A DNA stretch of 64,000 bases from the human T2T-CHM13v2.0 reference genome, Homo sapiens, in NCBI RefSeq assembly GCF_009914755.1, contig NC_060940.1, one strand, 5' to 3'. Under the pieces are notes generated by a model. That model saw only the letters and a program-made list of their open reading frames with translations. It made no database searches and had not been told where the DNA came from. Positions 1-60,776 of the stretch are shown here, piece after piece. Both the position numbers and the translations under genes were made by a program. Positions within the stretch are counted from its first letter, which is position 1; each line of letters begins with the position of its first letter.

Positions 1-250
1 GCACAAGTGAGGCCCCTGCTCTCCCGTGCTTTGGGTCCGTTGTAACAGCATAAAAAGCTTGTGGAGTATCTTAGGTGAGTCCACTCTTGCAGCTGGGCAG
101 GCATCATAGTGTTCGGCTCCCTGTTACAGTGTCATTTCTTGGGGACATAGCAGATGGAAAATTCTGGGGTAGTTTTGATTTAGCAGTTATCACATTTGCT
201 GTTCATGGAGTGTCTGCAGGGGCTAGGCACCCCTCACGATGCTTGTGTCT

Positions 251-527
251 GCCAGCCATGGTGGCTCATCCCTGTAATCCCAGCACTTTGGGAGGCTGAG
301 GTGGTAGATCACTCAGGGTCAGAAGTTGGAAACCAGCCTGGTCAATATGACAAAACCCCATGTCTACCAAAAATACAAAAATTAGCCATGGGTGGTGGTG
401 TGCACCTGTAGTCCCAGCTACTCAGAAGGCTGAGGCAGGAGAATCTCTTGAACCTGGGAGGTGGAGGTTGCAGTGACCTAAGATTGCACCATTGAACTCC
501 AGCGTGGGCAACAGGAAGATCCTCACA
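251..527 (+). mobile_element. Alu (AluS/J-like), poly(A) tail lost
   Basis: Dimeric Alu sequence (GTAATCCCAGCACTTTGGGAGGCTGAGG ... AAAAATACAAAAATTAGCC ... ACTCCAGC); no A-tail. Confidence 0.95.
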
Positions 528-921
528 CATACAAAGATGTTCATGCCATTTTTCATCCTCTATCTCAAATAGCCAGTAAGGCATGGAGTGGGCTTCCACC
601 CTGGGACCCCAGCCCTAAGACCTGCACCTTTTTCTACTCCAGAGTCCTTGCCCTCCACACGCTCTGTAAAGAGCATAGCTGCCGAAACCAGCTTGAGGCA
701 GTCCCAAGGCCCGGCATCTTGATGTCGCAGATGCTGCTTGGGGCCAGGAGAGTCACCCTACAAAGTGTGTTCCAGCATTTACTTTGAGACCTGTTGGTGA
801 TTAGCAGGTGATTTCTACTTGCAGACAAGGCCCATCATGGCTTCTGTGCCCTGTGTGGCCAGGCCTTGCCTCCTTGGCCGCATGACTGTGGTGAAACAGC
901 CAAAGATGGTTCAGACTAGAA

Positions 922-1130
922 CAGAGATCAGAAAATGATGGCCCACAGGCCAAATCTTACCCTCCACCTGTTTTTTATAAGTAAAGTTTTATTGGAACAT
1001 GCCCAGTCATTCACACTTCATGTATAGCTTCTTATTATAAGGGCAAAGTTGAGTTGTAACTGAGATGGAATGCCTCCCTGGAGCCTAGTATGTTTAGTCT
1101 CACCCTTTATAGGAAGTTTGCCAACCTATG
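922..1130 (+). mobile_element. MER58A-like hAT-Charlie MITE
   Basis: GGCCCACAGGCCAAATC...TAAAGTTTTATTGGAACA...AGTTTGCCAACC matches recalled MER58A; 8-bp TSD GACTAGAA (914-921) / GGCTAGAA (1131-1138). Confidence 0.8.
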
Positions 1131-1290
1131 GGCTAGAATACTGAGGCTGATGTACACTCACATGTAAAGGGAATACCTTCCATACCGCATGTAGTGATAT
1201 GGAAAAAATCTCCATGACATTATTACTAAGAGGATAAAGCATGGAAGAGTACCACACAATACCTTTCTAATTTTAGAAATAGCAAATATG

Positions 1291-1583
<293 letters not shown>

Positions 1584-2439
1584 CCAAACACCAAATATGA
1601 GGATATATACTTCCACCGGTGCATACATACGTGCTTCTATGTGTAATGTATACCTGTAGAAAGACACATTAAAAAGTAACCGTCACTTAGTGGAGGACCA
1701 AGGTGGGAAGACTCACTTTTTCATGTATTCACCCCCCTCATGCTCTTATTCTACACTCCTGTGTTGCCTATTTAAAAAAGGTGATAAAATAGTTGAAAAA
1801 GTGTAGAGGCTGAATAGCTGAGATAAGGAAGAGGGAGCCAAGAATATGTGTTAATTTACCTTTTTACAGATGATTTTTGAGCAGTATTTTCATGATAGAC
1901 TTTCTGGGAGGAAACCTGTGACGGGAGGGGAAGCTCAGAATTGCTGGTTTTATTTAAGTGGAAATAAATTTTTAGTTGAATCATAAAGGTAGAATGGGCT
2001 TAGGGCACAACAAAAAGCTGTTTCTCAATCTAAATATTTCTTCTCTGGCCGAGTGATGGGCTTCTAAACAAGGTGTCATCCAGATGAAGGAAGTGGGGTG
2101 TTTTCATCTCCATGTGATCCTCTCTTTGCTTGGATGAAATCTGGTGTGAAATAATGGAACAGTGGTCCACAGCTGCCAGGAGAATCTCAGAAAACCCTCA
2201 GTACCATCGTGCAGACTTCCCCACAGAGAGCCTTTAGGAACACACTGCACTCAGATTTGCCATCTTCTGAGGACAGTCTAAAAATCACTGCTCCGGAGGT
2301 TCAGACACCGTCAAATGTTTAACCAGTTTGTTAGCCCACCAAAAAGCCACTTGTAACCTCAGAGATATGTGGAATCATTCTTTTGGGGGCTAGTCTTTCC
2401 ATTTGCAGAACTTCCCCAACAGTAGGATTGCTTTCAAGT

Positions 2440-2607
2440 TGGGGTCTCAGCCACAGCTTGCACATTCGATCACCCAGCATGCTTTTAAAAATACAGAGGC
2501 CAGGCCCTGCCTGGTTAATGCAACATTAATCTTTGGGCCTCAGCATCAGGATCTTTTTAAAGTTCCCCAGGTAATTCTAAGGTGCATCCAAAGTTGAGAA
2601 GCCCTGC
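2440..2607. mobile_element. MER5A-like hAT MITE remnant
   Basis: TTTTAAAGTTCCCCAGGTAATTCTAAGGTGCATCCAAAGTTGAGAA terminal motif. Confidence 0.6.
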
Positions 2608-3245
2608 TTTCAAAAGGCTGGAACAAATTCTGGTGTTACAATTAGATCTGAGTCTGAGGCATCAACCCAGCAAGTATTTTCTGAGCTTTGGTTTCCGTTC
2701 CTGTGCAGTAGGATAAAAGTACCACCCTCCTTTCAGGTGGTGAGCCAACTTGTGAATGGGGACAGCTGACAAGAAATACTTCCTGGCTGCCTTGTACACA
2801 TACCAGGGGCCCGCTTCAGAAGCACATGGGCATCAAACTTCTGTATCCCCGCCTCAGTTTTGTCACTTAGCTGCTGCTGGGGACACAGGAGCAGGCAGGT
2901 GATATTTCTAGCCTGTCTGCTCATCTGTAAGGTAGGGATCTCTATACCCTACCACACAGAGCCACTGTGAGGATCCAGTGAGATTCCCCAGCCAGGCTGT
3001 GCCCAACACAGTGCCATGTCAAAGTAGCTCCTGCTGGTCCCTGTCTCTAAAAAACGTGGCAAGTCCAGGCTCAGATGGGAAGGATTTTTGGGGCACTGAA
3101 TCTGTCTCAATCACTCAACTGTGCTATCCTCAGTGAGTGTAACCATGGCTGATACGGAAATGCCTGAGAGGCCACATTCCAGTACAGCTTAATCTACTAA
3201 TCCTGCAGAAAGGGAAACAACGGCAGATAAGGCAGGGGAGGGCCG

Positions 3246-3440
3246 TGGAGTCAGACATCCAGCACCATGCCCCAGCTTTGCCTCCTAGGGGCTCGTAAGC
3301 CCTGGCCAGTTAACTTCTGTGCCTCAGTTTCCTCTTCTAGAAGAGGTGATAATGGAACTCCTCTCCTGGCTTCTGTGAGGGTTTAATAAGCCAATACACG
3401 TGTAAGACAGCAAGCATGGTACCTGGCGCAGAGCAGTGGT
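3246..3440 (+). mobile_element. MIR SINE (further MIR fragments ~2640-3020)
   Basis: MIR core CTGTGCCTCAGTTTCCTC...TGATAATGG...GTGAGGGTTTAAT. Confidence 0.75.
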
Positions 3441-4641
3441 GAGGACGTGGTCAGTTCTTTTGGCTCGAGAGCTGGAGTGAAATACCTCGGGTCCATCTCA
3501 TCACCCAACGATTGGGCCTCAGGAATCTTGCTCAAAAATAGCCTGCCAAATGGGCCTTCATTTCTCAGTGATGTCCCCAGCACTGGCACACAGGCCAGCC
3601 AAGTTGCTGCCCTCATGGAGTTTATATTCTCATGGGGATGACTAAAAAAGCAAAAACCAAACACCAAACAAATGGAAGGATTGCAATGGGAGACCCAGGC
3701 CATGCAGGGCGTTTACAAGGGTCGGGGGAAGATTTAGATTGGGGGACTGATAGAAGAGACATGGTATCTCCAGTGAAATCACTTCTGATTTAAGGTATGA
3801 ATTCATCTCAGCTCTGGGCTTTCAGTCATCCTGGAGGAGAGAACAGCCAACAGTGTGACACCTGACCTGCCAGAGAGGAGAGGGTGTGGCAGATGGCAGG
3901 GCCTGGGGAGACATGGACATGGAGGCAGGAGATAGGCAAGGGCAGCAGAGCTGATTGCTCCTGGCCTTATATGCCACGTCATCAGGAACATGGATTGTAT
4001 TGAGTGCAGCAGGCACTGTCTGAGGGGCTGAAATCAGGAGAGTGGGATTAGATCAGCTTTAAGAGGCTGGGGACACTAATTGGAGATGGTAACTGCAAAG
4101 CAACACTCACCTGCATATAGTTCAGGCTTGGCCTGGGGCTTTCAGGCTGGGAGGGCCTTGGGCTTCTGGCTCACAGCTCTGGGGTCCTTCCTGGGATTTT
4201 TGGATCTTTAAGTCAGTATACAGCTGCAGTTATTTCCAGGAGCCATGCTCACAGATGGGGACTTGAGAATACAGAGAGAGATTGTACAAGACCACTGCCG
4301 CCTAGGGGCACAGAGTAAGAGGAAAATGAGTGGGCACCTGGCCCTGGGAAACACCCTAACAAGGCAGGCAGAGAAACCAGCTCGTCTTCTCAGAGCTTGC
4401 CAGACATGCTCTCAAGGTGAACATATAAGTAGTTCTGGTGGTTGAAAACCAGGTCTGACACACTCCAACCTGCTGAGCATGGTGTAGACCAGCTCAGACC
4501 AGCCCCAGCTGCTTAGACCAGGCAGGGCAGGTGCACACTTGCCATCACAGTGCTGGAGGAGGGACCCCACAGAGCACTGCAGGGAGCTAAGCAGGAGCTG
4601 TGGGCTCTGAGGATGCTTTGTTCCCCACCCCCCACCCCTGC

Positions 4642-5162
4642 AAGATGGAGTTTCGTGCTTGTTGCCCAGGCTGGAGTGCAATGACGTGATCTTGGCTCAC
4701 TGCAACCTCCGCCTCCTGGGTTCAAACAATTCTGCCTCAGCCTACCACGCAGCTGGGATTATATGCACATGCCACCACCCCCAGCCTAGTTTTTTTCCTT
4801 AAGTACAGACAGGGTTTCACCATGTTGGTCAGGCTAGTCTCGAACTCCTGACCTTGTGATCCACCCACCTAGGTCTACCGAAAGTGCTGGGATTTCAGAT
4901 GGAGTCTCACTCTTTTGCCTAGGCTGGAGTGCAGTGGCATGATCTCCGCCTCCTGGGTTCAAGCAATTCTCCTGCCTCAGCCACCCAAGTAGCTGGGACT
5001 ACAGGCATCCACCACATTTGGCTAATTTTTGTATTTTTAGTAGAGACAGCGTTTTAACCATGTTGCCCAGGCTGGTCTGTAAATCCTGACCTCAAATGAT
5101 CCTCTCACCTTGGCCTCCCAAAAGCACTTGGGATTACAGGTCTAAGCCACCATGCCCAGCCC
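4642..5162 (-). mobile_element. Two fused tandem Alus (4642-4895, 4897-5162)
   Basis: Two antisense Alu bodies; one TSD (GGATGCTTTG at 4611 and 5163) flanks the pair; the junction lacks the tail of one copy and the 5' end of the other. Confidence 0.9.
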
Positions 5163-5829
5163 GGATGCTTTGCTCTTTACTGTGTTTAAGTAAATGAGCA
5201 ATGTGTGAATAAGTTCTGGCTTAAACCATTTGAACGATGAGCATATATAGAGCAAAACGTGAACATCTCCCTCGGCTGCATCGTCTCTGCCTTTTGGTGC
5301 ATCTGTGTATACATGGGTGCTTGCTTCATATGAGGTTTCAGTTTTAACTAAAATGGGACCAGATGTCTTTTGTTCTGTAGCTTTTCCCTTACCTGTGTCT
5401 TGAAGGTGTTTCTGTGCCCCTGTGCATGGGTGTGCATCGTCTTCTGTAATGTCAGCGTGTCCTGCTGTTTCCGCACACCTGCCATGCCAGGTCCATGGGT
5501 CCTGCACATAGGCATGGAGTGGTTTCCAAGCTTCCTCCGCAGCAGGATGCTGCATTGAACATTCTCGCCCACGTTTTTGTGAACTTGTTCAACAATTTCT
5601 TAAAGCTGACACCAAGACTTGGAGCTCCCAAGTCAGAGGAGCTCACTCACACATACCTGCCTCAGTTTCCCCAGGTTTCACCAGTTTGTGCATTTGCTAA
5701 CCACAGGGATGCCAATTCTCAGCATCCCTGCCCATGCCTGGTGACAGCTGTCTTTCAGTCTTTCAGTTTGTATTTTCCTTAAGTGTATTAGAACGTGCTC
5801 TCTCCCCCCCCATGGAATGCAATTGTTTA

Positions 5830-6343
5830 TTCTAGAAATTTGTATTGAGCACCTGCTCTGTGCCCTTCTTTCCGTAGGTGCCAGGGTGCTCAGGAAAGAG
5901 GACAAAGATACGTCAGCATGCCATACAGGACAGGCAGTGCAGGGGAGAGGGGCTGAGGAGGGCAGCAAGCACGGCCTCTGGAGAAAACAATGGAGGTGGT
6001 GAGGGGGGTCAGTCAGCCGGAGCACCTTTCTTTCTTGCAGAGGCAGGCAGGAGTGTGCCTGCCTGGTGCCACCGAGCAACCTCAAGAGGCTGGTTGGAGT
6101 TGTGGGGAGGTGGAGGAAAAGTGAAAGGGCCAATCAGGGACAATCTCAGAGTATCAAAAGGCTTATTCTCAGACTTGGTCCAGGAGTGACAGGGTCTGGC
6201 ATCAGTGGGGTTACTCAGGTGTGGCATGCAGACTGGACTATGGGCAGCTGCTGGGTACAGGGAGAAATGGAGGTGAGAGATGAGGGTGCTCAAACCCAGG
6301 GTATGACCTCCAAGAGAGCAGGAGTGCTGTCCAGTCAATCCCT
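5830..6343. mobile_element. Ancient L2 fragment within old L1M-like sequence
   Basis: ATTTGTATTGAGCACCTGCTCTGTGCC and GAGGTGAGAGATGAGGGTG motifs typical of the L2 3' region. Confidence 0.55.
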
Positions 6344-6926
6344 CTCATAGCCCCAGTGTTTCTTGGCACCTGAGAAACATGTTGGTTAACTTTTCTCCCA
6401 TGAGGCGCTCCCTGTCTTTCCCTGCGTGTCTGCTGGGCTGCTGGCCCCTCAGGTTGCTTTGTAGGAGACACTCATGTACGCAGGGTGTTTCCCTAGCTGA
6501 CATGTCTGAGGACGTCTTTCGTTGTGGGGAGTCACACAGGGATTGACTGGACAGCGCCCCTGCTCTCTGGGAGGTCATACCGTGGGTTTGAGCACCCTCA
6601 TCTCTCACCTCCATTTCTCCCTGTACCCAGCAGCTGCCCATAGTCCAGTGTGCATGCCACACCTGAGTAACCCCACTGATGCCAGACCCTGTCACTCCTG
6701 CACGAAGTCTGAGAATAAGCCTTCCGATACTCTACAAGATTCTCCCTGATTGGCCCTTTCACTTTTCCTTCCACCTCCCCACAACTCCAACTAGCCTTCA
6801 GGCTGCTCGGTGGCACCAGGCAGGCACACTCCTGCCTGCCTCTGCAAGAAAGGTGCTCCAGCTGACTGACCAACCCCCCTCACCACCTCCATCATTTTCT
6901 CCAGAGGCCGTGCTTTCTGCCCTCCT
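5956..6926. repeat. Long inverted repeat: arms 5956-6343 and 6538-6926, 194-bp spacer
   Basis: Manual alignment of arm 1 with the reverse complement of arm 2 gives about 18 substitutions and 5 small indels; mirrored ORFs 6066..6350(+) and 6345..6695(-) share peptide text. Confidence 0.97.
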
Positions 6927-7894
6927 GTTCTTGGTCTCAAACCTTATTTTTGCGTATGGTGTCAGGTCTGTTTACATCACACCAACTTGTAACACCATCT
7001 GCGTGGCTTTCAATTTTCAAGTGTTTTTTTTTGTTCACTTGTCCTGTGGACTCATGCCATGTCACCGTAGTGCTGAGTGACGCTTAAAGGGTGCTTTTCT
7101 TATTAATCTTATAGAATTAATTTCTGCTTTCATTGAGAAGTATGGGTTATTACTCTTATGTTCTCAAAGTGATGGTTGGAGTGGTTAAATCGCTTTGTCG
7201 CCATGACACATCCCAGATGTTGCTGAGTCTGAAATGTAACCTAGGGTCTTCCAATTGTGAGGTTGGTTTCATGGCGTCACACCCCACCTCCCTAAAGCTG
7301 GCAAGAAATCCGAGGTCCTGTGGGGCCAGCGGGCATTGGTCTGCTATAGACGAGCTAGACCAGGACAGACCACTTGCACTTCACTCACCTGGTTGAGTAT
7401 ACCAGTCGTAATTGTAGGCACTGGCGATATAGTACAGAAGATGACACTTCAGATGGCTACAGATGCTGTGAAGAAACTCCAAGGAACTCTTAGGCGAAGG
7501 CCAAAAGCACGAGGAGGAGTTAGGGCATGGCAGGCAGTCCCCGTGTTGCCAGAGGAAGTGACGATGGGATTACAGCTGTGGGAAACATTTGCATTTGATT
7601 CTGAACACAGTGGGAAGCTATGGAAGGGTTTGGGGTCTGAGGAAGGGTCAAGGCAAGAAGGGACGGTGTCTGGGTTTAGGAGACACAGCAGAGACAGAAG
7701 TGGAAGCAGTAGTCATGTGTCTGGAGGCAGAAGCCAAACGCCAGTGGGTCTTGGATTTTGTTTGGAATGTGAATAAAGAAAAATTAAGGTGCCCCCAGAG
7801 TTCTGGTTTGAGCATTGGAGTCAACAGTTGCCCCCTTTACTAAAGTGCAGAAGCCCAGAGGAGGAACAGAAGTTTGATGGTGGAAAAAATTGAG

Positions 7895-8190
7895 TTTTTT
7901 TTTTTTGAGATAGGGTATCCGTCTGTCTCCTCACCTTGAGTGTAGTGGCATGATCTCGGCTCACTACAGCCTCTGCCGCTCAGGCTCAAGCAGTCTTCCC
8001 ACTTCTGCCTCATGAGTAGCTGGACAACAGGTACACACCACATCTGGCTAATTTACCCCCCCCCCCCGCCCCAAGATGAGGTCTTGCTATGTGGCCCAGG
8101 CTGGCCTCAGAGTCTGCCAGGCTCAAGCCATCTAGCTGCCTCAACCTCCGAAAGTGCTGAGATTAGACACAGGAGTCACTGCACCTGGTC
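7895..8190 (-). mobile_element. Alu (AluJ-like)
   Basis: Poly(T) then antisense Alu; linker replaced by a C-run. Confidence 0.9.
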
Positions 8191-8445
8191 ACAATTTCCA
8201 TTTTGGCTATGTTCAAGGTAGATATACTCACTCCAGGGCTCTAGAGGGAAAGGCTGACATACGAATTTGGGAAGCTTTACCATTTGGATCTATGGAAAGA
8301 TAAGTGGGGAGTGCAGGCAGAAGAGACCTGGGACCCTGTACAATTTAGTGGCAAAGTCACCTTCAGAGAGATGGGAAGAATCTCAGAAGAGGGTGGAGAT
8401 GCTGAATGGTTGAGGGCTTGCGAATAGAAACAAGCCACCTTTGGC

Positions 8446-8704
<259 letters not shown>

Positions 8705-8719
8705 AAAAAATCTTTTTGA

Positions 8720-8897
8720 TGAGTGGCAGTGCAGTAGGCTCGTTTGACACCAGCATCACCTCAGATGCAGGAGTAGTGCAGTGCATTGTGATGTCACTAA
8801 GCAACAGATATTTTTCAGCTCCATCACGATCTTACAGGATCACTATCATATCTGCAGTCTGTTGTTCACCAAAACATCATCAATGTGACATGACCAT
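8720..8897. mobile_element. Tigger3/MER7-like TcMar MITE fragment
   Basis: ACACCAGCATCACC...GTCACTAAGCAACAGATATTTTTCAGCTCCAT matches the recalled Tigger3 end. Confidence 0.65.
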
Positions 8898-10178
8898 AGC
8901 CATTCCAGCGAGTGGAGGAGGGCCTGTGCAGGGAACTGGAGGATTCTCAAGTCGTCAGGGCAGGCAGGCTACTATTTTCATTCACCGCTTGCCCTGTCTT
9001 CCTGTGGGTCTTCTTCTTAAGATTTTAGCCACGGTTGGTTGGGCTGGGTGCTGCAGTGGGGAGAGCACTGTGAGGTAATTGGCCGGGATTACAACAGAGA
9101 CATGATTGTGCTCTGAACATCCCATGCAAAGTGGGGACGGGGCAACTGAGAATTAGAAGAGCAGCAGCATTCAGGGATAATCCTTTCCATCCTTAGCAAG
9201 TTAGGCGTAATGCATCTCAGTTTTTAATAATTACGGTTTACTCCAGCAGAACCATCACAGAGCCTCTCTTCAGCCCCGCCTAGTAGATGGTATCTGAGGT
9301 CTTCTGAAATGTCAGGCTGAGCCAGCTCTGAAACGCGAGATGGCCCCTGGTCACCTCAAGTGGCTATCAACAAAGAGACAAAGAGGCCCCCTCAGCATCA
9401 CAGCCATTGGTAACCATCGGAATTTTACATAGAGTGATATGTTAGCCTTGAAGTGGTGAAAGCTGACATCTAGAAAGCATTGGTAGACTTCTGTATGAAC
9501 TTAATGCCATCCTTTAAAGTTAGGCACAGTGCATCTTTAGTTTTTAATGAGCACTGTTTACCCCAGGGATGCACACACCCCACAGTGCCATGCCTCTCAG
9601 TACCCCGTCCATGGTGGATCCATACACTTGTCACACTCTGCCACAGCTGTTCACACAGTGCAGGCCCTGAGCTTAAAAGAAACCTATTCTCCATCCCACC
9701 CAATCCTGCTGCTCCTTGTGGCTGGGATTTGAATCCATCCCCATCCCGTTTCTACGGGGGGCTGCACAAGCCTCACCACTAGGCTGTCCCAGGCCCATTG
9801 GGTGATCATCCCGCATTGTACAACCTGAAGCAGTTTATCTGCCTGATAAGGGCTCCCTAGGGGCAGGGCCACAGTCACCAAGAGCCACAAGAGGGCCACA
9901 GGCAGCCCATTTGCAGAAAATGTGCCTGAGTTTGATTCAGGGCCTGAAAGCATTGTCTTGTTTAATCTCATAGGTGGGTTGATATCGGCCCCATGTTTCA
10001 GGTAACAGAGGGATTCAGAGACTTTAAAGAAATTTACACAGTTATGGGGGAGAGAGACAAAAGACTCCTTTTAAGTAAATTCACACATCGTAACTGCAAT
10101 GTAGAGGTCTACCGCTGTGTCCCCGTGCTCCTTAGTCTACGATGAGTAGTAGTCAAATTGGGCTTGGATCCCTCTTCT

Positions 10179-10651
10179 GGTCCCCAACCCCTGGCCCAGT
10201 ACCAGTCCATAGCCTGTTAGGTACTGGGCTACACAGTGGGTGAGCAGCCCTTCGTCTGTATTTAGAGCCACTCCCCATCACTCGCATCACCGCCTGAGCT
10301 CTGCCTGTCAGATCAGCAGCAGCACTGCATTCTGAAAGGCATGCAAACCCTATTGTGAACTGCCCATGTGAGGGATGTAGGCTGCATGCTACTTACGAGA
10401 ATCTCATGCCTGATGATCTCTCACCCTCTCCCATCGCCCCCTGAAGGGACCATCTAGTTGCAGGAAAAGAAGCTCAGGGCTCCCAATGATTCTACATTAT
10501 GGTGAGTTGTGTAATTTTTTCCATGTAGTAATAATAGAATGTACAAATGTAACACACTTTGTATCTCAAAAGCATCCCCACCCCCTACATCTGTGGGAAA
10601 TTTTTCTTATACATAACTCGTCCCTGGTGCCAAAAAGGTTGGGGACTGCTG
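10179..10651 (+). mobile_element. MER1A hAT-Charlie MITE
   Basis: TIRs GGTCCCCAACC / GGTTGGGGAC; internal CATCTAGTTGCAGGAAAA and GATTCTACATTATGGTGAGTTG. Confidence 0.85.
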
Positions 10652-10917
10652 CCACGTGACCTTGCACATGGCCCTGTATCCAAATGTAAGCCACATTCTG
10701 CTTCTCTACCATGGGCCTGGGGCAGTAACTTCTCGAGCTTCCCATCTGCCATGGTGAGAACACCAAGAAATAGATGAAATAGTGATGCCCAGCCTCACAG
10801 CAGTCACTCTGAAAGCATTACACAGCACCTTCGTCTTTACTATCTTCCAGGCCATTTCCATCATCATCTCTGGCATTCTAATGCCAGACTGCTTTGATTT
10901 AAAATACCAGATTTCAG

Positions 10918-11029
10918 AGGCTGAGGCAGGAGAATGGCATGAATGCAGGAGGTGGAGCTTGCAGTGAGTCGAGATTACATCACTGCACTCCAGCCTGGGC
11001 AACAGAGCAAGACTCCACCACGAAAAAAA
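10918..11029 (+). mobile_element. Alu right-arm fragment
   Basis: GAGGCTGAGGCAGGAGAATGGCATGAA...GACTCC plus short A-run. Confidence 0.9.
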
Positions 11030-14000
11030 GATTTTGCAAGCAACTTCACTTACATTTTGGAAGACTTAATATGACAAATACACAAAGAAAAATGACTAGA
11101 AAACTATGTAACTACTGTCCTAACAGTGGTTATCCACAAAGGATGGGTTGACAAGCTATTCTAGTTCTGTGTTCCCCTCCCCCCCCAACAAACAGTAAGC
11201 CTTTCTCACTTTTTTTTAATTCACCATTTAACTTGTGCTTGTAGAAGAGCAACTACACAGCTAGAGCTTGCAGAAGAAAAGCCTGAAGCTTAAAAATATC
11301 AGGAACACAGCAGCAATGTCACAGTGTTATTGAAAGCACACTCAAAATGTCATGAAAAAATAATGCTGGGTTTACCGAAGGGGGATTTACATTCATCTGG
11401 TGACAGGTTGTGCGCTCAGTATTTTGAGTTCTTTAATCCCCAAAAGCCACAGTGTCTGTCCTGTAGGCATCCATGTCCCCAGCCCCGAGTCTTTTGGGTT
11501 CTTGCCTGGGAGTCACACTTACCTCCTGCTTTTCTGGGCACGCCTGTCCTGCCCTCCACCTTCCAAGACCATTTCTATTTCTGGTTGAAACCTTGCTCAG
11601 TGTGATTCCTTGGGGTCTGTCCATCTGTACCTCTCATAAAGCAGCAAGCAACAGCTGCCTTGTCACATCCCCACCTTGTGCCACCACGTAACTAGCATCT
11701 TGAGGGCTGGGCTTGGATGCATTTATATCTAGTCATCGACTCTGGGCTCAGAGTGCACACATTCAACATCAAAACCAGCCTCTGCTCCTGATTAGCCATA
11801 GCATTTACCCTCTGTGCTTTATTTTCCATGCCCTTAAGATTAGGATGGTAATTACAGCACCCATTTCACATGGCCGGCTTAAGGATGTTATGAGAATTTG
11901 TGTTAGTCCTTTAGTTCAAGATTTGACAAGCAGTGGCTTCTTTAATCCTTTTAAAATAAAGTACCTCGTGGTGTTGGGATCCGGAGAACCAGACCCAGAC
12001 CTGCCTTCAAGGAACACTTGGGTACTGCCAGAGCCATTTCTGGATCAGTTGTGGATGGTGGAAGTCTTGGAGACCCATTTCAAACCAAGAGGTAGGAGGT
12101 AAAGGCCTTGATGGATGTCAGCATAGTTCACAGTGGAATTAGATTTCACGGGGCACCCATCACGCAGTCCTGAGGCCCAGGTGTTGCCTAGGAATGAATT
12201 CAAAGGCTATTCAGCCTGGCATGCTCTGATACTGCCCATCAGGACCCCCGCAGCCATGCAGTACAGAAGGCAGAGCAAGGCCACTCCCTCCCACTCCACA
12301 GATCCAAGGGGCTAAGACACAGGGAGAACATTCTCCATGATCTTCACATCCTGGAGGCACAACTGGGTTTTCAAAGTGGTGAGACTCACAGACTTATGAG
12401 GGAGCTAGGTCGTGGAGGATGCTGGCCAGATCCCCGCCACACACACAGATCAGTCCTAGCTGGGTTGCAGGGATCCAGCCCTCTAAGCTTCAAAGGCAGC
12501 TCCTAGTAAGTGGAGTATTGACCGGCTCGCCAGACCCAGATCACAGGTGAAACAAAGTGAAAAGTTAGTCTCTCCTCGCAGCCATTTTCACTGATGAGCA
12601 GTTGAGGCTGTCCGATTAATTTCAGCCGCATGCTGGTGACAGGACACAACGCAGTGTACCCCAAGAGGCTTATTAAAAAGAACAGCCACTCCTGGGGCCC
12701 TCTGAGGGTGCCCTCACACACAGACCCCCTTTTCCGCAACTCCCCAGTGCTGTGTTAAGTTGCTAGCAGTAGGGAGGATGGAGACGGAGTTTCTGAAATG
12801 AACACCAAAGCACATGTCAGGACCACGCGTGGCCTGGCAGGGGGCTCATTACCGCAGCTTACATCCTTCTCCCTGCAGGGGAGGGGAGGCAGTGCCCTGG
12901 GGACTTATGGGCTGTCTCCTAGGTGACCGTGGCATCCCAGGAGTTCCTTCTCCAGTTGCCTTCCAGGTGAGCTTAGAGCCAGGTGCATCCCTGGGGGCAT
13001 GACATCCCCAGAGTGTTTCCCAGCTTGGTGACAATGGACTCTGCAACCCAGGAGGCCTGGCCCCTCATGGATTTGGGGATGGAATCATCTGTGCCATTTT
13101 CCTTCCCGTGTTTTCTGCCCAGTAGTTTGAACCGCATTTCTAAGGCCGTTCCCTCTCCTGTGTGACCCCAAAATGGCTCTGGCAATACCAGGTCTGTGGA
13201 GTAAGATTGAGGTCTGACCTGAGCATAGGGTTCACAGAGGAGTGAACCCTGCTGGAGGTGGCCAAGTTCAGAAGTGAAGGGCGAGGGCATTCACTAAGCA
13301 GCATCCCCATGGGCCACGCTCTATCCCAGCATCAAACGTTATCGTTGGCTTTGTCCCAAGAACCTGCAGGGCAGATTCTGTGATTTCCCCCTTTATTTTT
13401 GCTTGCACCATTTTTTAAAACAGCAAGAGACAGATCACATACCATACAATTTACCCACTTAAAGTGCACACAGCTTGCTAGTTTGACTTTGATCCCCCTT
13501 CATAGGCTAGGAACTCGAGTCCTAGAAAGGAGCATCGTGAGCAGCCCAAGTACACCTGCTGGTGAATGACACAGCCAGGAGTCATCTAAGACACTGTCCC
13601 CGTGGTCCCTAGTTTTTACCCAGAGACGGGGACAAAGGTCGCTGGCTCTTGAGAGCTACAGGCTATCAGGGTCTTCCCTGAGGGGCTGTTTTATGTCGGG
13701 AAAGTCTAGACTTACAGGCACTGCCCTCTTTGGAGTCGAGATTGAAGCCTACCGTGGTACTGTTTCTCCCTTTTATGGCGTAGTTCCTTGAGTTTTCACA
13801 AAGGCTTGGAGTCCTTTAGCCATCACCATCAAGATGTGGAACAACTCCTTTACCCCCAAATTTCCTAGCATTCCCCTATAGGCAACCCGACAGCTCCCGC
13901 TCTGTGCTTTGTCATTCCTAGTTTTGGGAATTTGATGATGTGCTTGAGATTCGTCCATGTTGCCAAAAACCTGCATAGTACGAAGCAAACATTCACCCAA

Positions 14001-15154
14001 CACAAGGGGTAGCAAAGGAACGAGGGCTGATTCGTAAGAAGAACTGCTTCAATGCACCTTTAAAACCGTGTTAATATCATTGCAAGGGCCAAGGTCGCCT
14101 CAAAATGTAGGTACTAGAAGAGAAATCCAGAATGTTACATAGAAGACGCACGCTAACAAGAGAGCCCGGGAAAGGTCGCCACACGTCCTCATCCCAGCTC
14201 CCGGGGGGGCAACTCTGGGCTCAGGGACGTCACTTCCCACAGTTAACATGCTGGGATTCTGAGGCTCATACCCTGAAAGTGGCCTCCCCATCATCACTGA
14301 CCCCGCCCAGGTAGCAGAGGAACGTCAGGTTCTGCATCCACAGCTCGGAAAGTCTGCTTTGTGACTGGAGAGTGTCACCGTCGAGGAGTGGCCATTATCC
14401 TGAGCCTGTCTTTTATCGCCACGTTGATATTTTACCCGTGACAATGAAAATAGATGGCGACTGGATTTTGTTCCTTGCCGTATGTCCTTTGCAGGTAAAT
14501 TTAGGAAACCTAATAGGGTAAAAGGCTCAAGGAATAGGGCCATTAAAACGGGGAGACTCATCCCCGCATGTGAAAAATTGAGTTGTCTCCCACCACTACC
14601 TGAGGGGTCTACCCCACCCCGTTGGGTGGTGGCTTAGGCCTCCATGTCTGTATCACCACATCTCACAGACTGTCCTGGCCCCAGAAGGTAGGAACTGAGT
14701 CTTTTCAATTTCCCGAGAGCCCATGATGGGGTCTGGCCTCATCTAAGAGGAACATGAGGAAAGCCAGAGATGGCAGTGTCATTCTTTACCCAACACCCAC
14801 AACTTCTCCACCCTCGTCTGCAGACCTGTCTGAAGACTGCAACACCCACCCATTTGCTGCCTTTTATTTATTCAGGCTGTCTGTAAATATCCCTGCTGAA
14901 TAGCCGTCTCTCCCCATCTCTAGCCCCTTCGGCCTCTGCCGTCTCTGGAGCAGGCAGCTGAAGACCTACAATACCTAGACGCTGATCTTGTTCCAGAAAG
15001 AAGAGGAAGGGCTTTTCAGATAAGGTTCCCTCTGCCCCCTGCAGCACCCTCTTCCCCCAGGGTAGGGAGTTGAGGAGTTGCACCGGTAATAGGTTGTGGT
15101 TTGCAACGATGCTGTATTTTGGGAGTTTGTAATATCTTTGTAAAATCCTCCTTG

Positions 15155-15282
15155 ATTGGGTGTGGTGGATTATGCCTATAATCCCAGCACTTGGGAGGCC
15201 TGAGGTAGAGGATTGCTTGAGTTCAGGAGTTTGAGACCATCCTGGGCACCATAGGGAGACCCCCATCTCTAAGAGAAAAAAA
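15155..15282 (+). mobile_element. Alu left monomer (FLAM-like)
   Basis: Single Alu arm ending ACCCCATCTCT plus A-rich tail. Confidence 0.85.
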
Positions 15283-18200
15283 TCTCTACTCAGTTCCTTT
15301 GGTATATTAGATGCCTCTACCAGTAAAAGTTCCTATGAAGTTGCTGGCTAGACTTCACTAGTGTCTCTTACCTTATTTCAGTCATTTCAGGATGTCAAAG
15401 GAGCCAAATCTGTTTCTAATCACCACCAACTGCATAAATATGTATCAAATGATGTATGGTTGGCACTATTATCCTCATTTCACAGATCAGAAAGCTGTGT
15501 TTTGGGGAGGTTATGCATATTTCTCCAAGGTCTAGAGTGTCTTAACAGAAGGAACTCAAGTTTTCTGACTCTGAATATGGAGTTAAGGGCTTTGGCAACC
15601 CATTCTTATGGATTGCCATCCAGACGCCCCTTTTTCTTGTTTGTAAAACTGTAACAGACCTAGTCCCAGCATTAACAGAGTCCCTGCTGGGGAGCAGGAA
15701 TGGAACATATCTTGTCCACACATTCCTCTGTTGCTTAGGCCCCAGAGCTGCAAGCCCACTTTGTTACAAAAATGCAGTTGTGCCCAACAACTGTCTGCTT
15801 CTTGGTGACTGGCTTTATGATTGCAGCCAGCTAAGAAATGGTGTTGTCATTCCAGAAGTCTCGGTGGTACAGAAGGCTGAAGTCGGCAGCTAACAAGGGC
15901 TATGAGAGATGAGAATTTCACTCTGAGGATCCTGGGGGGAGGAGGCATCTGCAGCAGGGACTGGAGGGAACCTTGGTGTTAAAAAAAAGGCTGTCATTGT
16001 AAATGTGAGGCGTTTCAGCTTCCGACTACAGCCCGTGTCTCTACTGTTGGACGCCAGTCCTGGGATGAGCCTGGCACTGGCTTCATTCCCCTGTAGCAAA
16101 GGGGCCCAGTGGGGACACATGGGGTCATCTTCTCTTCTGAGTACTGGCCCTAGTCTCTTATCCACATTAACCCCACTTCCTTTGCCAGTTTACATACTCC
16201 CAGTCCTACCCAACCCCCCACCTTCAGATTCTGCTATTCAGCCAGACAGCATTACCAGTATTAGGCTGTTCTCAATCTATAAAGATGGCAGTTACAAGAG
16301 GTTCAGCCTCACATACGCCAGCAGCCACCAGCACTCTCCATTCAAGCCCACTGTGCTCAGCAGTCTGGGTTTTCCATCTGTCACGCACTCACTGAAGCCC
16401 CTGGTCTAGCCAGATTTCCGCAGGTGTCATCCACTCAACTTGTCCCAAATGAAGCCCATCCTCCCGTGGCCCCTCACCTGCCCCCTCCTCATCCTGGGTT
16501 CTCTCGAACCATCACAGCAGCCCTGCCTCCAAGCCTGTGTCCCAAGACATGGCTCTGCTCCACATGGCCTCGAGGATTGAACCATCCTTGTGTCACAGAA
16601 GCCTACTGTCACACCATCAACCACAGCAGCCTACACTCACTGGGACTTCCCAGGTGCCAGGCACAGACATGTGACACATATAGCCTCGTGACAGCTCAGT
16701 GCACGTCCCGAGCTAACCCTGCCTTCCAGGAAGGGGAAGCAGCTGGGCCGGGTCTGCCCAGCTACAAGTCCACCCCCTCCCCATGGGCCTGCCACCTTCA
16801 CCTTTTTTCATTTTCACATCTAGAGGGCCCTTTACACAGCAACCCTCAGCTCACTTCTGGTCACCCTCCACACCTCTGCCTCCTCCGGGAAGCCCTCTGT
16901 GCCCTGCTCAGAACAACCTGAGTTCCCTCTCATTGGGGCATCCACCGTGATCCACCACAGCCATCTGTCCAGTGTCTGCCCTCCCCATCCTCAATGACAC
17001 TGTGGCTTTCCAAACCTGAGGCCACTTCTGCACCCCTTCATGCCCAGCCCAGCATGGTGGTGACACAGGTCATGTGTTTGAATGTTCACTGTTGCCCATT
17101 GTCTCTCTAGGCACTTGATCCCCATGATGCTTAAAACCACCCCACCTTTATTCTGTCCAAGGCTCAGAGGGCAGGCATTTGCCTACAGAAACACAGCTAG
17201 TTGGTGGCTTTAGGTAGCCCTTGAATCCTTACCACCACAGTACTAGGATATGCTTATGGTTGTCATCCCCAAATGACAGACAAGGAAACCAAGGGTCAGA
17301 CAGCACTGCCCACGGCAGGACTGGACAGAGACACGTGCCTCCAAGCTATGTCCTCTCCCTACCCCTTCATAACAGTCACCCCACCGACTGCTACCTCTCC
17401 TCTCCCAACCAACAAGGCACTGGCCTCTCCCAGGCACTCTCAGAGCCTGTTACCTCCAGGGCCTCTCCCCAAGCTCTGGTCATTGCAGGGCAGGGCTCAT
17501 CCTGGCTGTGCTGAATGATGGTGGTGGTTGCAGGCTAAGTGGCTGCTCAGACCCCGCATCTGAAGAGCATGACAGGAGGGGGTTGTGAGGGCATGGCTTT
17601 AAACTGACTTTTACATCCAAGCCTTCCTGTATCTAAGAATCAGTTCCCCTACACTGCAAGCAAAGACCTCCTTCCAGCATCTTTGAACCATCCTCTAAGG
17701 AGCATTCAGGGATAAAGAGGCTCTTCGTAAGTGGGGTCCCATCCTTTGAAGAGAGGATCATGTTTGCTTTGGGCCTGCAGCCAGACACCCACCTAAAGGA
17801 GGAAAGCACAGCGCACGCCAGGCTGGTTGGGCTCAGAGATGATTCAGAGGAGCTCCGGCTTTGTTCAAGGTCAAATGTTTCTTTTTCATCCATGCACAGA
17901 AGGCAAAGCAACAACTTGACTTACAGGAAAAGACAATCATTAAAAGGGGTCTTCATTTTGTTAGCTTATCAGGGTGTCAAACTTGAAACGAGGGATCTCA
18001 CTCGCACAGTGGCCATGTCCCTGGAAAGGTGCAACGCAAAGTAGATCATTGTGAAGAGATTCACTCCTGAGATACATGAAGATGCTAGGCTGTTTCAGGG
18101 AACCCTGCAGGGATCCTCGAGGGGAATGATTTCTTTATGAATGCAAGTCTCTTAACTCACATGATTTGTGAAACTGGGCTTGGATACAGCTGGGGGTGGA

Positions 18201-18536
18201 TGTTCCTGATCTGACATTCTCACTTGGCATCTTTGGTCCTTTCTAAACCACAGATAAGGCAGAGCTAGCTGTGGACACAGTCCTGTCTTCCCTTGTAGGG
18301 TCCAGTGGATCCAGGACTTACATCCAGCAAGCCACAGCAGCACAGAGGTGCTGCGGACGCAGGAGTGGACATGGATCCTGTTAGGTTTTTGCCTTGTTTT
18401 AAAACATTTTATCCCAGTGAGGTATTTACTTCCTATTCAAATAGCGTATAGTAGGCAGAGTAAGAACATTCCTAGCCCCAAAATTTATGTGTCCCCTTAT
18501 CTAGCAAAAGGGACTTTACAGGTGTGATTAAGGATT

Positions 18537-18818
18537 GGCCAGGCACAGTGGCTCACACCTGTAATCCCAACACTTTAGGAGGCTGAGCAAGAGAATCACT
18601 TGAGACCAGCCTGGACAAGAGCAAGACCCCATCTCTACAAAAAATTACACTCAGGTATGGTGGCTAGTACCTATAGTCCCAGCTGCTCAGGAGGCTGAGG
18701 TGAGAGGATCACTTGAGCCCAGGAGATCGAGGCTGCAGCAAGTTATCATTACACAATTGCACTGTAAAACCTGGGCAAGAGTCGAGACTGTCTCCAGAAA
18801 ATACAATTTTGAAAAAAT
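18537..18818 (+). mobile_element. AluJ-like, following an MLT1 fragment (~18470-18535)
   Basis: Alu dimer with GATCACTTGAGCCCAGGAG; 14-bp microhomology deletion in the left arm. Confidence 0.9.
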
Positions 18819-19337
18819 GCAACCACATCACAGGACTTCCTGCTGAGCACCCTCTGCTCTCACGGTGAAGCCTCCCAGCCTCTACCCTATCCCCTAAAAA
18901 ATGTGCCGAGGGCCTCCCACACAACCCAGACCCATGCCCTGGGACCCACACACACTGTGTGTTCGCGTTGCTTCAGAACCAGGATCAGTGTCCCCCTCTT
19001 GGTGTTATCTTCCACTGTTCTTGGCTCTTAAACACAATACCATGCCAAACAACCTTTTAACTAGCCCCTAGCCTAGGTCCTGATTATTTTCTTAGGATTA
19101 ATTCCACAGGAAGTCCGTCTCCTGTGTTTTGCTACACATCTTGTGTGGCTTTATGTAGTGTTCTCCAAAGTTGCCTTGGACTTAGAAGCGTACCTTTGCT
19201 GGAAAATCAAGGAAAATGTGGGGAAGAAAGCTGTGCCTAGAACATTCTTTCATAGCCTTAAAATGTAGACCGGAACGGTGGTACCATGAGCTAGCTCAGA
19301 CTCACAGCCAAGCTTGGTTGGAGCCTCGGAGTGCTGT

Positions 19338-19360
19338 AAAAAAAAAAAAAAAAAAAAAAA
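19338..19360 (+). repeat. A23 homopolymer in the last intron
   Basis: Direct read; no associated SINE body. Confidence 0.95.
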
Positions 19361-19518
19361 TGGAAAGGTTTACGTGACAATAGGGGTTTCTCATTTCTTC
19401 AGGTGGCACCAGTTAGAGGCAGATCCAATGAGCCAGTCACAGTTGCCAATCAGATCCCTCCTGCCCTCACACCTGGCTCCCCTTCCTGGCCTGTGGTCAT
19501 TTGCTTTTCATCCGCAGA

Positions 19519-19548
19519 CTTAACCCGATTCTCTCCCTGCTCTTTCAG
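19519..19548 (+). promoter_or_regulatory. SNX29: Branch point, polypyrimidine tract and 3' splice acceptor of the terminal exon
   Basis: CTTAAC (branch A ~19523), TTCTCTCCCTGCTCTTT, CAG ending at 19548. Confidence 0.85.
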
Positions 19549-25316: not shown

Positions 25317-25729
25317 TTAGATACTTCAGTGGATGGTCTCTGTCTCAGTTCTTTTTCAACAACTGGAGATTGAGGTGAACTTAATACACGTGGATCAACT
25401 GAATTGAAATGGAGCAGAATCTCATTTTGAGTTAATTAGGCAGATTTGGATAAACTGGCAATGCAGCATTAAAATTTCATACAGAAAACACTCCTCATTA
25501 CAGGTACCTATGTATTCACTTCTAGAAGAAACAATTATTAGGCGGCTACTGTATACCAGGTGCTTGGCATACAGCAGTAAGACAGGTAAGGTGTACTGTT
25601 GGAGTCGCACTGGACATGAAGCAGACAGATTTTTAAGAAGTCAACCATCCGGATAATTTCAGACCACAGTAAATATTGCAAAAGAGTGACAGGAATTAGA
25701 AATTCTTGGTCCCAACCAAGAATCTACGT

Positions 25730-27660: not shown

Positions 27661-28281
27661 TGTGGACCCAACTCCCAAACCTATGTCAGCCTCATCTCTG
27701 ACTGCCTAACCAACACTCCATTTGCATCACTTCACGAGCATCTCAAACCGAACTAAAAGGCATCTTTTGTTTTCTGCCCCAAAAGTGCTCCTACCCGTGA
27801 CTCCCCAGCTCAGGAAGTAGAGGTTCCATCTCAGCAGCTGTGGAGGCCACCAGTCCTTGCCTCTTCCTGTCCCCTACCTCGTAATTGACCAGGTTCCTAT
27901 TTATTCACTTCCTTAAGAAACAAGCACCTACTGTATACCAGTTGCCGGGCACACGGCAGTGAGCAAGACAGGTAAGGTGCACTACTGCCCTTGGCTCCAC
28001 CCCTGAAATAGATCTAGATCCGACTGCTTCCAGCACCCTCCACGCCTCACCACCACCATGGTCAAAGCTGCCATTGCCTCTCATGATGTGGGTGCCACAC
28101 TGTCCTCCCCAGTCACCCCCCGTGCCATCACACTGCCATTCAGGCTCCTCTCCACGCAGCAACCACTGCGACCTTTAACATTGGTTTGGATCACTCACTC
28201 GACCACAATCCTCCGTAGGACTCCTGCCCTGCTCTGCTCCTGGTGACCTCTGCCGTGGCAGACAGTGCTTTAAAAAGTATT

Positions 28282-32439: not shown

Positions 32440-33400
32440 TCAAGGGCTTGAGGTGGGGGTCTCCTACCAAGGCCTGGCTCTGCCCCACCTGGCTATGGGA
32501 GCTGAGCCTTGTCTATCAACCTCTCCAGGCCTCAATGTCTTCAATCTGGAAAATGACCTTCCTGCTGGTCATTGTATTAAATGAGTAAGATGTAGAGAGT
32601 GCTCAGAACACCGTTTGTCTCTAAGCAAGCGTTTCTGAAGGGTCTTCTCACATCTGTGAACACAGCTGTTGTTCAATGCCTCACACTCTTCCCCTAGCTC
32701 ATTCTTCCACTTTCTCTGCTCTGACCCCAATCCTGGTCCATGGCAAGATGCCTGGGGCACAACCCGGGAGCCCGAAACATCTCAGACAGTGAACGCACCA
32801 GTGAGCCGCTGGCCACCTTTTCTTATTTAAAACCCTCAGTCCCACGAGGCAGGAATTCTCGACCCCCATTTTCCCCAACGGGGGAACTGAGCCTTGGAGA
32901 AGGTAAATTACATAGAAACCAAAAAACCCTAAAAGCAGCTGAAAGACTCAAGAACGACATGGAGAATGGCTCGAGCAGGGACGCTATCCTTCGAGGCCTG
33001 TTTGTCAGATGGGACCAACAGCATTACTCACCTCATGCGGTTGTCGGGAGGAACAAATGAGGCAATGGAGCATCAAGCATACAGTAAGTGCTCAATGGAT
33101 GGTCAGTCCGATCCTCTTTGGTGTGGAGACTGGATAGTCCCATTAAGTCGTTCCACCGCAGCAGACAAAGGCCCATAGACTTATTTCAGGACACCCTGTA
33201 TTGCTAATGATTATTTTTATTTATTGAGCACTTACTGTGTGTCAGATCCTGGGCTACTAAGCCCTTGATGTTTACCCTTCAAAGCCGTTACAAGACTTAC
33301 AGCAATGCTGGAAGGAATCTGAGGCCTAGAGAGGTGGTGAAACGTGCTCAAAACCACACAGCACTGAATGGTTGACTTAAGTGCAAGGACAGCGTGTTGT

Positions 33401-35708: not shown

Positions 35709-36137
35709 TTATCTGCCTTTTTTCTTTGACTATTGTTACTGTAGCTTGCATTTGTTTCTGTTTGAAGGATCACAAACGCTGCTGTACTTCCGTGTCTCCC
35801 TCTATTTGGCAACCTCTCAAGGGTAAGGACTGAAGGCTGGGTGTTTGGCCCCTTTGTCTACATCCTTTCCCAGTTTTATCTGCTGCTTTCAACACTGCCC
35901 ATACACTTGAGACTCTCCCATGTAGATATCTCCTAGGCATCTCAGATGTAACATGGCTCAAGTAGAAACCCTGAGGCCTCCCCCACCCTGCTCCTTCAGT
36001 CTCTCATGATGGTACAGGCACCTCCACCCAGCATTTCAAGCTCACACCTGAGTCATACCTGACTCTTCTGCCTTCACCGACTTCCCACAATACCCAACAC
36101 ATCAGCAAGTCCCATCTGCTCTACATGCAATACCTGT

Positions 36138-36605
36138 CATGTGTTGATGAATATCCCCATAAGATCCAGGGGTCCTCCCGGAACCTCAGAATTTTACCTT
36201 ATTTGGAAATAGATAAATAGGTCTTTGTAGATATAGTTACATTAAAGTCAAGTCATACTAAATTCGAGTGGGTCCTCCATCTAATGCTCAGAGCCCTTCT
36301 AAGAAGGCAGAACATGGAAATAGAGATGACCAAGGCTCCGTAAAAAGACAGACCCTGCGGAAATAGAGATGACCAAGTCTTGGTAAAGAGACAGATAGAA
36401 CCTGGAGCCACACATCCTTGCACTGAGAAATGCCTAGGACTGGCAGAAACCACAGGAAGCCAAAGAAGGGGTCTTCACAGAAAGGAGGGCCCCGCCCACA
36501 ACGCAATTCCAGCCTTCTCACCTCCAGAATTGCTGGGGAACAAACTTCCACTAAGCCACCAAGTCCATGGCCATGCGTTACAACAGCCCTAAAAAGAAAC
36601 TAACT
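36138..36605 (+). mobile_element. MLT1B/C-like LTR
   Basis: ACCTTATTTGGAAATAG...GGTCTTTGTAGAT...CCTCCAGAATTG...TAAGCCACC. Confidence 0.65.

Positions 36606-42766: not shown

Positions 42767-48505
<5,739 letters not shown>

Positions 48506-48508
<3 letters not shown>

Positions 48509-54826: not shown

Positions 54827-60776
<5,950 letters not shown>

What the first reader, a model, noticed from the sequence alone, without database searches (positions are those of the whole stretch)
5956..6926. ~390-bp, ~95%-identical non-Alu inverted duplication in the last SNX29 intron (long dsRNA hairpin/cruciform)
Seen: arms 5956-6343 and 6538-6926 with a 194-nt spacer, about 18 substitutions and 5 indels, and perfect runs of 67 and 50 bp. 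The sequence is ancient L2-like, so two independent insertions could not be this similar; it is a local templated fold-back copy. Inference: the pre-mRNA could form a long duplex, a substrate for ADAR or Dicer (endo-siRNA) or a modifier of last-intron splicing. In DNA it could promote spacer inversion and breaks.
Basis: partly seen in the sequence, partly recalled or inferred. Interest (0 to 1): 0.7.

Follow-up and report, generated by a model that had tools for sequence, protein, structure and literature searches.

The report
Old inverted duplication in SNX29 intron
A 390-base piece of intron DNA in the human SNX29 gene has a reversed copy 194 bases away, likely left by an old copying error; the RNA is predicted to fold into a long hairpin that would be spliced out, probably an ordinary by-product with no job of its own.

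Summary
Arms 5956-6343 and 6538-6926 flank a 194-nt spacer and differ by 18 substitutions and 5 indels. Identity is 95.3% ungapped and 92.2% with gaps; perfect runs are 67, 50 and 49 bp. A genome search finds only these two copies. An L2 tail lies just outside arm 1 and not arm 2, so arm 2 is likely the copy; L2 ancestry of the arm interior is only weakly supported. There is no target-site duplication. The anatomy fits the common 'Inverted Dup' class of template-switch duplications (under 1 kb, within 5 kb; PMC4617611); estimated age is 15-25 Myr. The stem is predicted 94-96% paired, just under the MDA5-candidate cut-off, and lies in an intron on both strands. Low-level nuclear ADAR editing is plausible but untested. 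Endo-siRNA, cruciform and SNX29 splicing roles are unlikely. A list of 197 more perfect pairs in human transcripts exists; none of its chr16 rows is this locus. Two weak oddities remain: 8 of 10 transitions keep pairing on the antisense strand (p=0.11), and the hairpin is centred in an inferred SNX29-AS3 intron. Ordinary member of a known class; interest 0.25.

The parts
5956..6343 (+). Arm 1 (388 nt), likely the original sequence; probably the decayed middle of an antisense L2 element
   Evidence: a 23-base motif is shared with 5 other genome loci, reversed control 0; profile match to the arm interior is weak and absent with one profile
6344..6537 (.). Spacer / loop, 194 nt, single-copy
   Evidence: only a self-match in the genome; no L2-profile match on either strand
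6538..6926 (-). Arm 2 (389 nt), inverted copy of arm 1, no target-site duplication
   Evidence: outer flank has no L2 match and is single-copy
5809..5908 (-). 3' tail of an L2 element (antisense to SNX29), collinear with arm 1 and outside the duplicated part
   Evidence: profile match E 8e-9 (partly circular); non-circular profile 10.0 bits vs best 3.3 in 200 shuffles; the same profile matches both arms of 3 of 3 mir-28-family hairpins, which PMC6433296 lists as L2-derived
5502..7388 (-). Inferred intron of predicted lncRNA SNX29-AS3 that holds the hairpin, 462 nt from the donor and 454 nt from the acceptor
   Evidence: hub annotation (exon ends 5501 and 7389; their joining is my inference); donor CAG/GTGAGT and AG acceptor read; centring computed
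1..19548 (+). Part of the last intron of SNX29 (NM_032167.5), host of the sense-strand hairpin
   Evidence: hub annotation; acceptor with a pyrimidine tract at 19549 read

Best explanation
This is a 388/389-bp inverted duplication with a 194-nt spacer in the last SNX29 intron, likely made by one replication or repair template switch roughly 15-25 million years ago and likely decaying neutrally since; the pre-mRNA is predicted to fold into a ~370-bp duplex that would be lightly ADAR-edited in the nucleus and removed with the intron. Steps. (1, inferred) The polymerase stopped at 6537, copied 6343 to 5956 from the other strand, and returned at what is now 6927. This is order '3-2-1-4' in the four-point model. 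(2, shown) The arms have since gained 18 substitutions and 5 indels, not significantly clustered. (3, predicted) Both strands can form the duplex: 94.2% paired on +, 95.8% on -. (4, inferred) On the SNX29 strand 8 adenosines sit opposite C and would be favoured editing sites. (5, inferred) The hairpin is intronic in every annotated transcript, so it would not reach cytoplasmic sensors or change the protein.
For: Two genome copies only. No flanking direct repeat over 4 nt. L2 tail continues outside arm 1 only. In 9 of 29 family loci the same tail starts 555-794 nt upstream of the motif in the same orientation, vs 429 nt here. PMC4617611: 54% of sequenced inversion sites were inverted duplications, nearly all under 1 kb and within 5 kb of the other copy, not typically tied to retrotransposition. 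PMC5453318: type 3-2-1-4 creates an inverted repeat, 31% of high-confidence events. Differences are not significantly clustered: P(longest run >=67)=0.26; outer vs inner half 14 vs 9, p=0.40. The C<>G excess (6 of 18) matches a window-wide excess in Alus: 52 of 328 vs 38 of 427 elsewhere, p=0.004. Maternal C>G-rich regions are reported on chr16 (10.1101/140111). PMC7006430: such duplexes are nearly absent from mRNA but far less depleted in pre-mRNA; 197 human ones exceed 300 bp and 96%. Of the 63 rows I saw, 26 have spacers under 1 kb (counted by eye).
Against: No primate orthologue was available, so direction, age and junction microhomology are inferred. One clustering test was borderline: a 117-bp stretch with one difference, p=0.04 on 23 events and 0.21 on 17 clusters, so some gene conversion is not excluded. 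8 of 10 transitions give G-U on the minus strand and A-C on the plus strand (p=0.11). The hairpin centre (6441) is 4 nt from the centre of the inferred SNX29-AS3 intron (6445), about 1% of 917 placements, noticed after the fact. The arm interior did not match one of the L2 profiles once the seed was removed. No editing or expression data were seen.
Confidence: 0.78

Rival explanations
1. The hairpin has been co-opted as an RNA bridge or editing platform for the antisense lncRNA SNX29-AS3: folding would shorten its 1.9-kb intron to about 0.9 kb and bring the splice sites together, and pairing is kept preferentially on that strand.
For: Centred in the inferred intron, 462 and 454 nt from the splice sites. 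The minus strand is better paired, 95.8% vs 94.2%. 8 of 10 transitions are G-U wobbles on that strand.
Against: The wobble bias is not significant (p=0.11). 8 transversions and 5 indels break both strands equally. The lncRNA models are only predicted (XR_), one model uses another acceptor (4301), and a 1.9-kb intron with a strong donor needs no bridge. The centring was noticed after the fact.
Confidence: 0.06
2. [quoted passage not shown]
For: Meets the Wang-Leung criteria quoted in PMC4319165: stem over 30 bp, identity over 85%, spacer under 2 kb. A 117-bp stretch has one difference (p=0.04 before merging nearby events).
Against: The signal disappears when nearby events are merged (p=0.21) and inner and outer halves do not differ. 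The longest perfect tract is 67 bp, shorter than the roughly 130-500 bp recalled as needed for efficient mammalian homologous recombination. Similarity stops sharply at both ends.
Confidence: 0.1
3. The hairpin is a source of Dicer-made endo-siRNAs or a miRNA, like the L2-derived miR-28 family.
For: Long, stable predicted duplex; L2 pairs in opposite orientation are a known miRNA source (PMC6433296).
Against: Endo-siRNAs were undetectable in non-mouse oocytes. The miR-28-type hairpins come from profile positions of about 125-185, while the arms match positions 413-754. No Rfam match in the arms except SNORA47 at E 0.52, far below its cut-off. The loop is 194 nt. No other genomic match to act as a target.
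Confidence: 0.04
4. Two independent insertions of a young repeat, or an assembly artefact.
For: Both arms carry a repeat-family motif region.
Against: Only 2 genome matches; family members are 66-79% alike; no target-site duplication; 23 differences between the arms argue against a collapsed or mirrored read.
Confidence: 0.02

Closest known systems
'Inverted Dup' structural variants of the 1000 Genomes phase 3 map (PMC4617611)
   Same: Duplicated stretch under 1 kb, inverted, within 5 kb of the source, no sign of retrotransposition.
   Different: Those segregate in living people and were found against a reference; this one has about 5% divergence between arms and is probably fixed (not tested).
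Four-point template switch, type 3-2-1-4 (PMC5453318)
   Same: A reverse-complement copy of upstream sequence that makes an inverted repeat around an uninverted spacer.
   Different: That study treats short events (clusters of tens of bases) with the ancestral allele in hand; here the fragment is 388 nt and the ancestor is unknown.
Long, nearly perfect intronic inverted duplicated sequences (PMC7006430; dsRNAscan preprint PMC11838218)
   Same: Over 300 bp, intronic, short loop, predicted ADAR substrate.
   Different: Just below the 96% cut-off (92.2% BLAST identity; 94.2% and 95.8% paired); not among the 3 chr16 rows of the 197-row table.
L2-derived miRNA hairpins (miR-28, miR-151, miR-708)
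   Same: L2-related sequence in inverted arrangement inside an intron.
   Different: Those are two separate ancient L2 3' ends with a short loop, conserved in mouse; here a local copy of a more internal part with a 194-nt loop.
Inverted Alu pairs
   Same: Intronic duplex of about 300 bp, typical ADAR substrate.
   Different: Not Alu; the arms have no partners elsewhere; pairing is tighter (best other inverted match in the window 82.5%).

Membership tests
Inverted Dup (local inverted duplication) | Duplicated stretch under 1 kb, inverted | tested here: met
   388/389 nt
Inverted Dup (local inverted duplication) | Within 5 kb of the other copy | tested here: met
   194 nt
Inverted Dup (local inverted duplication) | No retrotransposition marks; source is local | tested here: met
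   longest flanking direct repeat 4 nt, no poly(A) at the junctions; 2 genome matches
Inverted Dup (local inverted duplication) | Ancestral allele without the copy; junction microhomology | not testable with these tools
   no primate or population sequences held
Recombinogenic long inverted repeat (Wang-Leung criteria) | Stem over 30 bp, identity over 85%, spacer under 2 kb | tested here: met
Recombinogenic long inverted repeat (Wang-Leung criteria) | Observed rearrangement at the site | not testable with these tools
   none of 8 papers listed for SNX29+intron+inversion points to it by title or abstract start
Candidate MDA5 ligand (long, highly paired dsRNA) | Over 300 bp | tested here: met
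   366-372 bp
Candidate MDA5 ligand (long, highly paired dsRNA) | Over 96% paired | tested here: not met
   94.2% (+), 95.8% (-); BLAST 92.2%
Candidate MDA5 ligand (long, highly paired dsRNA) | Both arms in a mature RNA | tested here: not met
   no annotated exon of SNX29 or SNX29-AS3 overlaps 5956-6926 (hub annotation)
L2 retroposon remnant | L2 3' tail, tied to named L2 loci | tested here: met
   5809-5908
L2 retroposon remnant | Arm interior aligns to the L2 body | tested here: inconclusive
   motif shared with 5 loci, control 0; 6.6 bits away from the seed with one profile, -0.3 bits or no hit with two others
L2-derived miRNA (mir-28 family) | Rfam match; hairpin from the L2 3' end with a short loop | tested here: not met
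Endo-siRNA hairpin locus | Phased 21-23-nt small RNAs from both arms | not testable with these tools
   no read data; pathway undetectable in human oocytes per PMC10964541
ADAR-edited intronic dsRNA | Long stem, small loop, over 30 contiguous bp | tested here: met
   helices of 67 and 50 bp; these features favour editing per PMC11838218
ADAR-edited intronic dsRNA | A-to-I sites on both arms | not testable with these tools
   no editing database; SNX29+A-to-I+editing gave 0 papers

The most novel reading that the evidence does not exclude
An ape-lineage copying error was co-opted as a two-faced RNA structure. On the antisense strand it stays paired through G-U wobbles and bridges the splice sites of SNX29-AS3, in whose intron it is centred. 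On the SNX29 strand the same changes make A-C mismatches that hold the duplex just under the MDA5 threshold and mark eight ADAR sites.
Probability: 0.05. Interest if true: 0.6.

Novelty: new member of a known kind. Interest (0 to 1): 0.25.

Why it matters
As most likely read, it matters little. It is one of many fixed local inverted duplications. Its use is practical: a long duplex with unique sequence lets editing, structure-probing and small-RNA reads be mapped without the ambiguity of Alu pairs, and each mismatch reports its mutation class on a known strand without an outgroup. If the strand bias and the centring in the SNX29-AS3 intron proved real, it would show a replication error creating a splicing bridge for a new antisense RNA.

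Tried and rejected
Young repeat family: rejected. Known RNA family: none in the arms; Rfam hits nearby are Alu-related SRP/miRNA models below cut-off, plus SNORA47 at E 0.52. Single-sequence searches of the arm against the window and the family loci found no L2 similarity; only profiles did, and weakly inside the arm. Gene-conversion gradient: not significant. A higher overall local mutation rate: window Alus are more diverged, but they also keep fewer CpGs (0.11 vs 0.30), so they may simply be older; only the C<>G fraction is used. Polarising the 18 substitutions with the L2 profile: alignment too poor. A 5.7-kb same-strand repeat first taken for a tandem duplication is two copies of a dispersed repeat, so its spectrum (77 C<>G of 575; arms vs this p=0.03) is a rough control only. 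A larger background sample of the genome could not be fetched, so rarity rests on about 185 kb and on published counts. Tables S1 and S5 of the dsRNAscan preprint are not in the held supplement and may list this locus. Earlier scan findings were not available.

Full report
Observation. Self-BLAST of the window gives 5956-6343 against 6926-6538 at 92.2% over 395 columns, with 18 mismatches and 5 gap openings. A local alignment gives 382 paired columns, 95.3% identity, 10 transitions, 8 transversions and indels of 4, 4, 2, 1 and 2 nt; perfect runs are 67, 50 and 49 bp. Similarity ends sharply at both ends. Both strands fold at -849 kcal/mol, and 0 of 20 shuffles reach this. It is the best of 143 inverted matches of 100 nt or more in the window, the next being 82.5%. 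In 40 loci from elsewhere (121,307 bases, chosen for L2 or miRNA motifs and so not random) the best of 17 is 83.7%. Searching the whole genome with arm 1, or arm 1 plus flanks, finds only the two arms. The spacer and the outer flank of arm 2 match only themselves.

What the arms are made of. A 23-base gapped motif from arm 1 has 6 exact genome matches: arm 1 and 5 others, with reversed control 0. The motif of one of these has 93 matches at up to 3 mismatches, control 0. I used 29 loci for profiles, dropping my own locus and 2 near-identical paralogues of L013. These loci align with each other at 66-79% on average. A 22-base motif from the flank of arm 1 has 9 matches, control 0. A profile from the 8 foreign loci hits 9 of the 29 family loci on the same strand, starting 555-794 nt upstream of the arm motif; in the window the distance is 429 nt. 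A joint profile (29 loci plus 6 of the 8; two dropped as MIR-like, by recall) matches 5809-5908 at E 8e-9 and nothing outside arm 2. That was partly circular, so I repeated it with the 29 loci alone: 10.0 bits, against a best of 3.3 in 200 shuffles. The joint profile matches both arms of 3 of 3 mir-28-family hairpins, which PMC6433296 lists as L2-derived (passages). So an L2 tail lies beside arm 1. Inside the arms the match is weak: 6.6 bits away from the seed with one profile, and -0.3 bits or none with two others. L2 ancestry of the arm interior is likely, not shown. Arm 1 is likely the original.

Origin. No direct repeat over 4 nt flanks arm 2, so there is no sign of retrotransposition. The layout fits a single template switch of order 3-2-1-4, a type that makes an inverted repeat and formed 31% of high-confidence human-chimp events in PMC5453318 (passages); those events are much shorter. 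Size and spacing fit the 'Inverted Dup' class: 54% of sequenced inversion sites, nearly all under 1 kb and within 5 kb (PMC4617611, passages). Junction microhomology cannot be seen without the ancestral allele.

Age and decay. The K2P distance is 0.049, with a 95% interval on the raw proportion of 2.8-7.3%. Six of 18 substitutions are C<>G. Alus in the window also show more C<>G than Alus from other loci: 52 of 328 vs 38 of 427 substitutions, 16 vs 30 elements, p=0.004. C>G-rich maternal mutation regions are reported on chromosomes 8, 9 and 16 (10.1101/140111, passages), and an oocyte process peaks at RBFOX1 among other genes (PMC9217108, passages); neither passage names this locus. Discounting the excess leaves about 3.4% divergence. 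At a recalled rate near 1e-9 per site per year this gives about 17-24 Myr, with wide error. Differences are not clearly clustered: P=0.26 for the longest run; P=0.04 for a 117-bp stretch with one difference, or 0.21 after merging nearby events; 14 vs 9 events in the outer and inner halves.

RNA. The arm-arm duplex is predicted at 366 bp (94.2% paired) on the SNX29 strand and 372 bp (95.8%) on the antisense strand. By the hub annotation it is intronic in both genes. It lies 12.6 kb from the last SNX29 acceptor and at least 5.9 kb from the donor. PMC7006430 (abstract, passages, supplement searches, part 4 of 6 of its table file) reports that such duplexes are nearly absent from mRNA and less depleted in pre-mRNA. 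It lists 197 human pairs over 300 bp and 96%; only 20 were expressed above 0.01 FPKM and 7 of those strongly edited. Its 3 chr16 rows are elsewhere. Of the 63 rows I saw, 26 have spacers under 1 kb (counted by eye; their origin is not given). The dsRNAscan preprint (PMC11838218, passages) counts 2,018 duplexes over 300 bp and 96% paired genome-wide, 74% of them unedited, and finds editing favoured by long stems, small loops and over 30 contiguous pairs, all met here. Its tables were not held. LIRBase keeps arms over 400 nt (PMC8728187, passages), so this repeat would fall just short. On the + strand 8 transitions give A-C mismatches; ADAR's preference for A opposite C is recalled, not tested. 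Endo-siRNAs were undetectable in oocytes of 10 of 11 mammals studied, humans among them (PMC10964541, passages). Rfam finds nothing credible in the arms.

DNA. The repeat meets the quoted criteria for a recombinogenic long inverted repeat (PMC4319165, passages). A 194-nt spacer, four substitutions near the loop and a longest perfect tract of 67 bp make cruciform extrusion and frequent spacer inversion unlikely; this rests on recalled length requirements.

Results against the neutral reading. First, 8 of 10 transitions keep pairing on the antisense strand (p=0.11). Second, the hairpin centre is 4 nt from the centre of the inferred SNX29-AS3 intron 5502-7388, about 1% of 917 placements, or about 2% allowing for a second acceptor; this was noticed after the fact. 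Third, one clustering test is borderline. None is enough to claim function.

In print. No paper held SNX29 with A-to-I and editing or any of five SNX29-AS3/hairpin phrases. Eight papers held SNX29, intron and inversion; I saw only the listing, and none pointed to this site. None of the 20 papers listed mentions SNX29. Searches were background searches, seen as listings. The library omits most subscription papers and all browser databases.

Verdict. Interest 0.25.

Noticed in passing
window 42775-48508 and 54838-60522: Two same-orientation copies, 84.5% alike, of a dispersed long repeat (44 genome matches listed, the long ones at 86-92%). The ends look like near full-length L1 (recalled); one frame gives a weak endonuclease match (PF03372, E 7e-4, below cut-off). 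Not a tandem duplication. The annotated enhancer 43138-43657 lies in the 5' part of the first copy.
   Followed up: partly
window-wide Alus: C<>G substitutions are about 1.8 times as common a share as in Alus from other loci (52 of 328 vs 38 of 427), in line with the maternal C>G process reported on chr16. Window Alus also keep far fewer CpGs (0.11 vs 0.30).
   Followed up: partly
window 7398-7447, 7584-7633, 7753-7884: Weak collinear L2-profile matches suggest a second L2 remnant that overlaps the SNX29-AS3 exon 7389-7575.
   Followed up: no
window 3600-4017, 25505-25604, 27687-28176, 33218-33256, 35918-36138, 39355-39544: Further L2-family remnants found with the profiles; 27687-28176 holds pieces on both strands next to each other.
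   Followed up: no
window 11962-12142: The exon of other SNX29 transcripts has a weak acceptor and no GT after 12142, so it is likely an alternative last exon; it overlaps the first exon of SNX29-AS3 (11965-12187).
   Followed up: partly
window 51105-51918: Two overlapping stop-free frames of 200 and 255 codons on the + strand; the longer has no Pfam match and no tandem repeat lies there.
   Followed up: partly
L013, L014, L015 (G000:C1:160.78-160.95 Mb): Three paralogous 3-kb loci, 98.1% to 99.97% alike: a recent segmental triplication.
   Followed up: no
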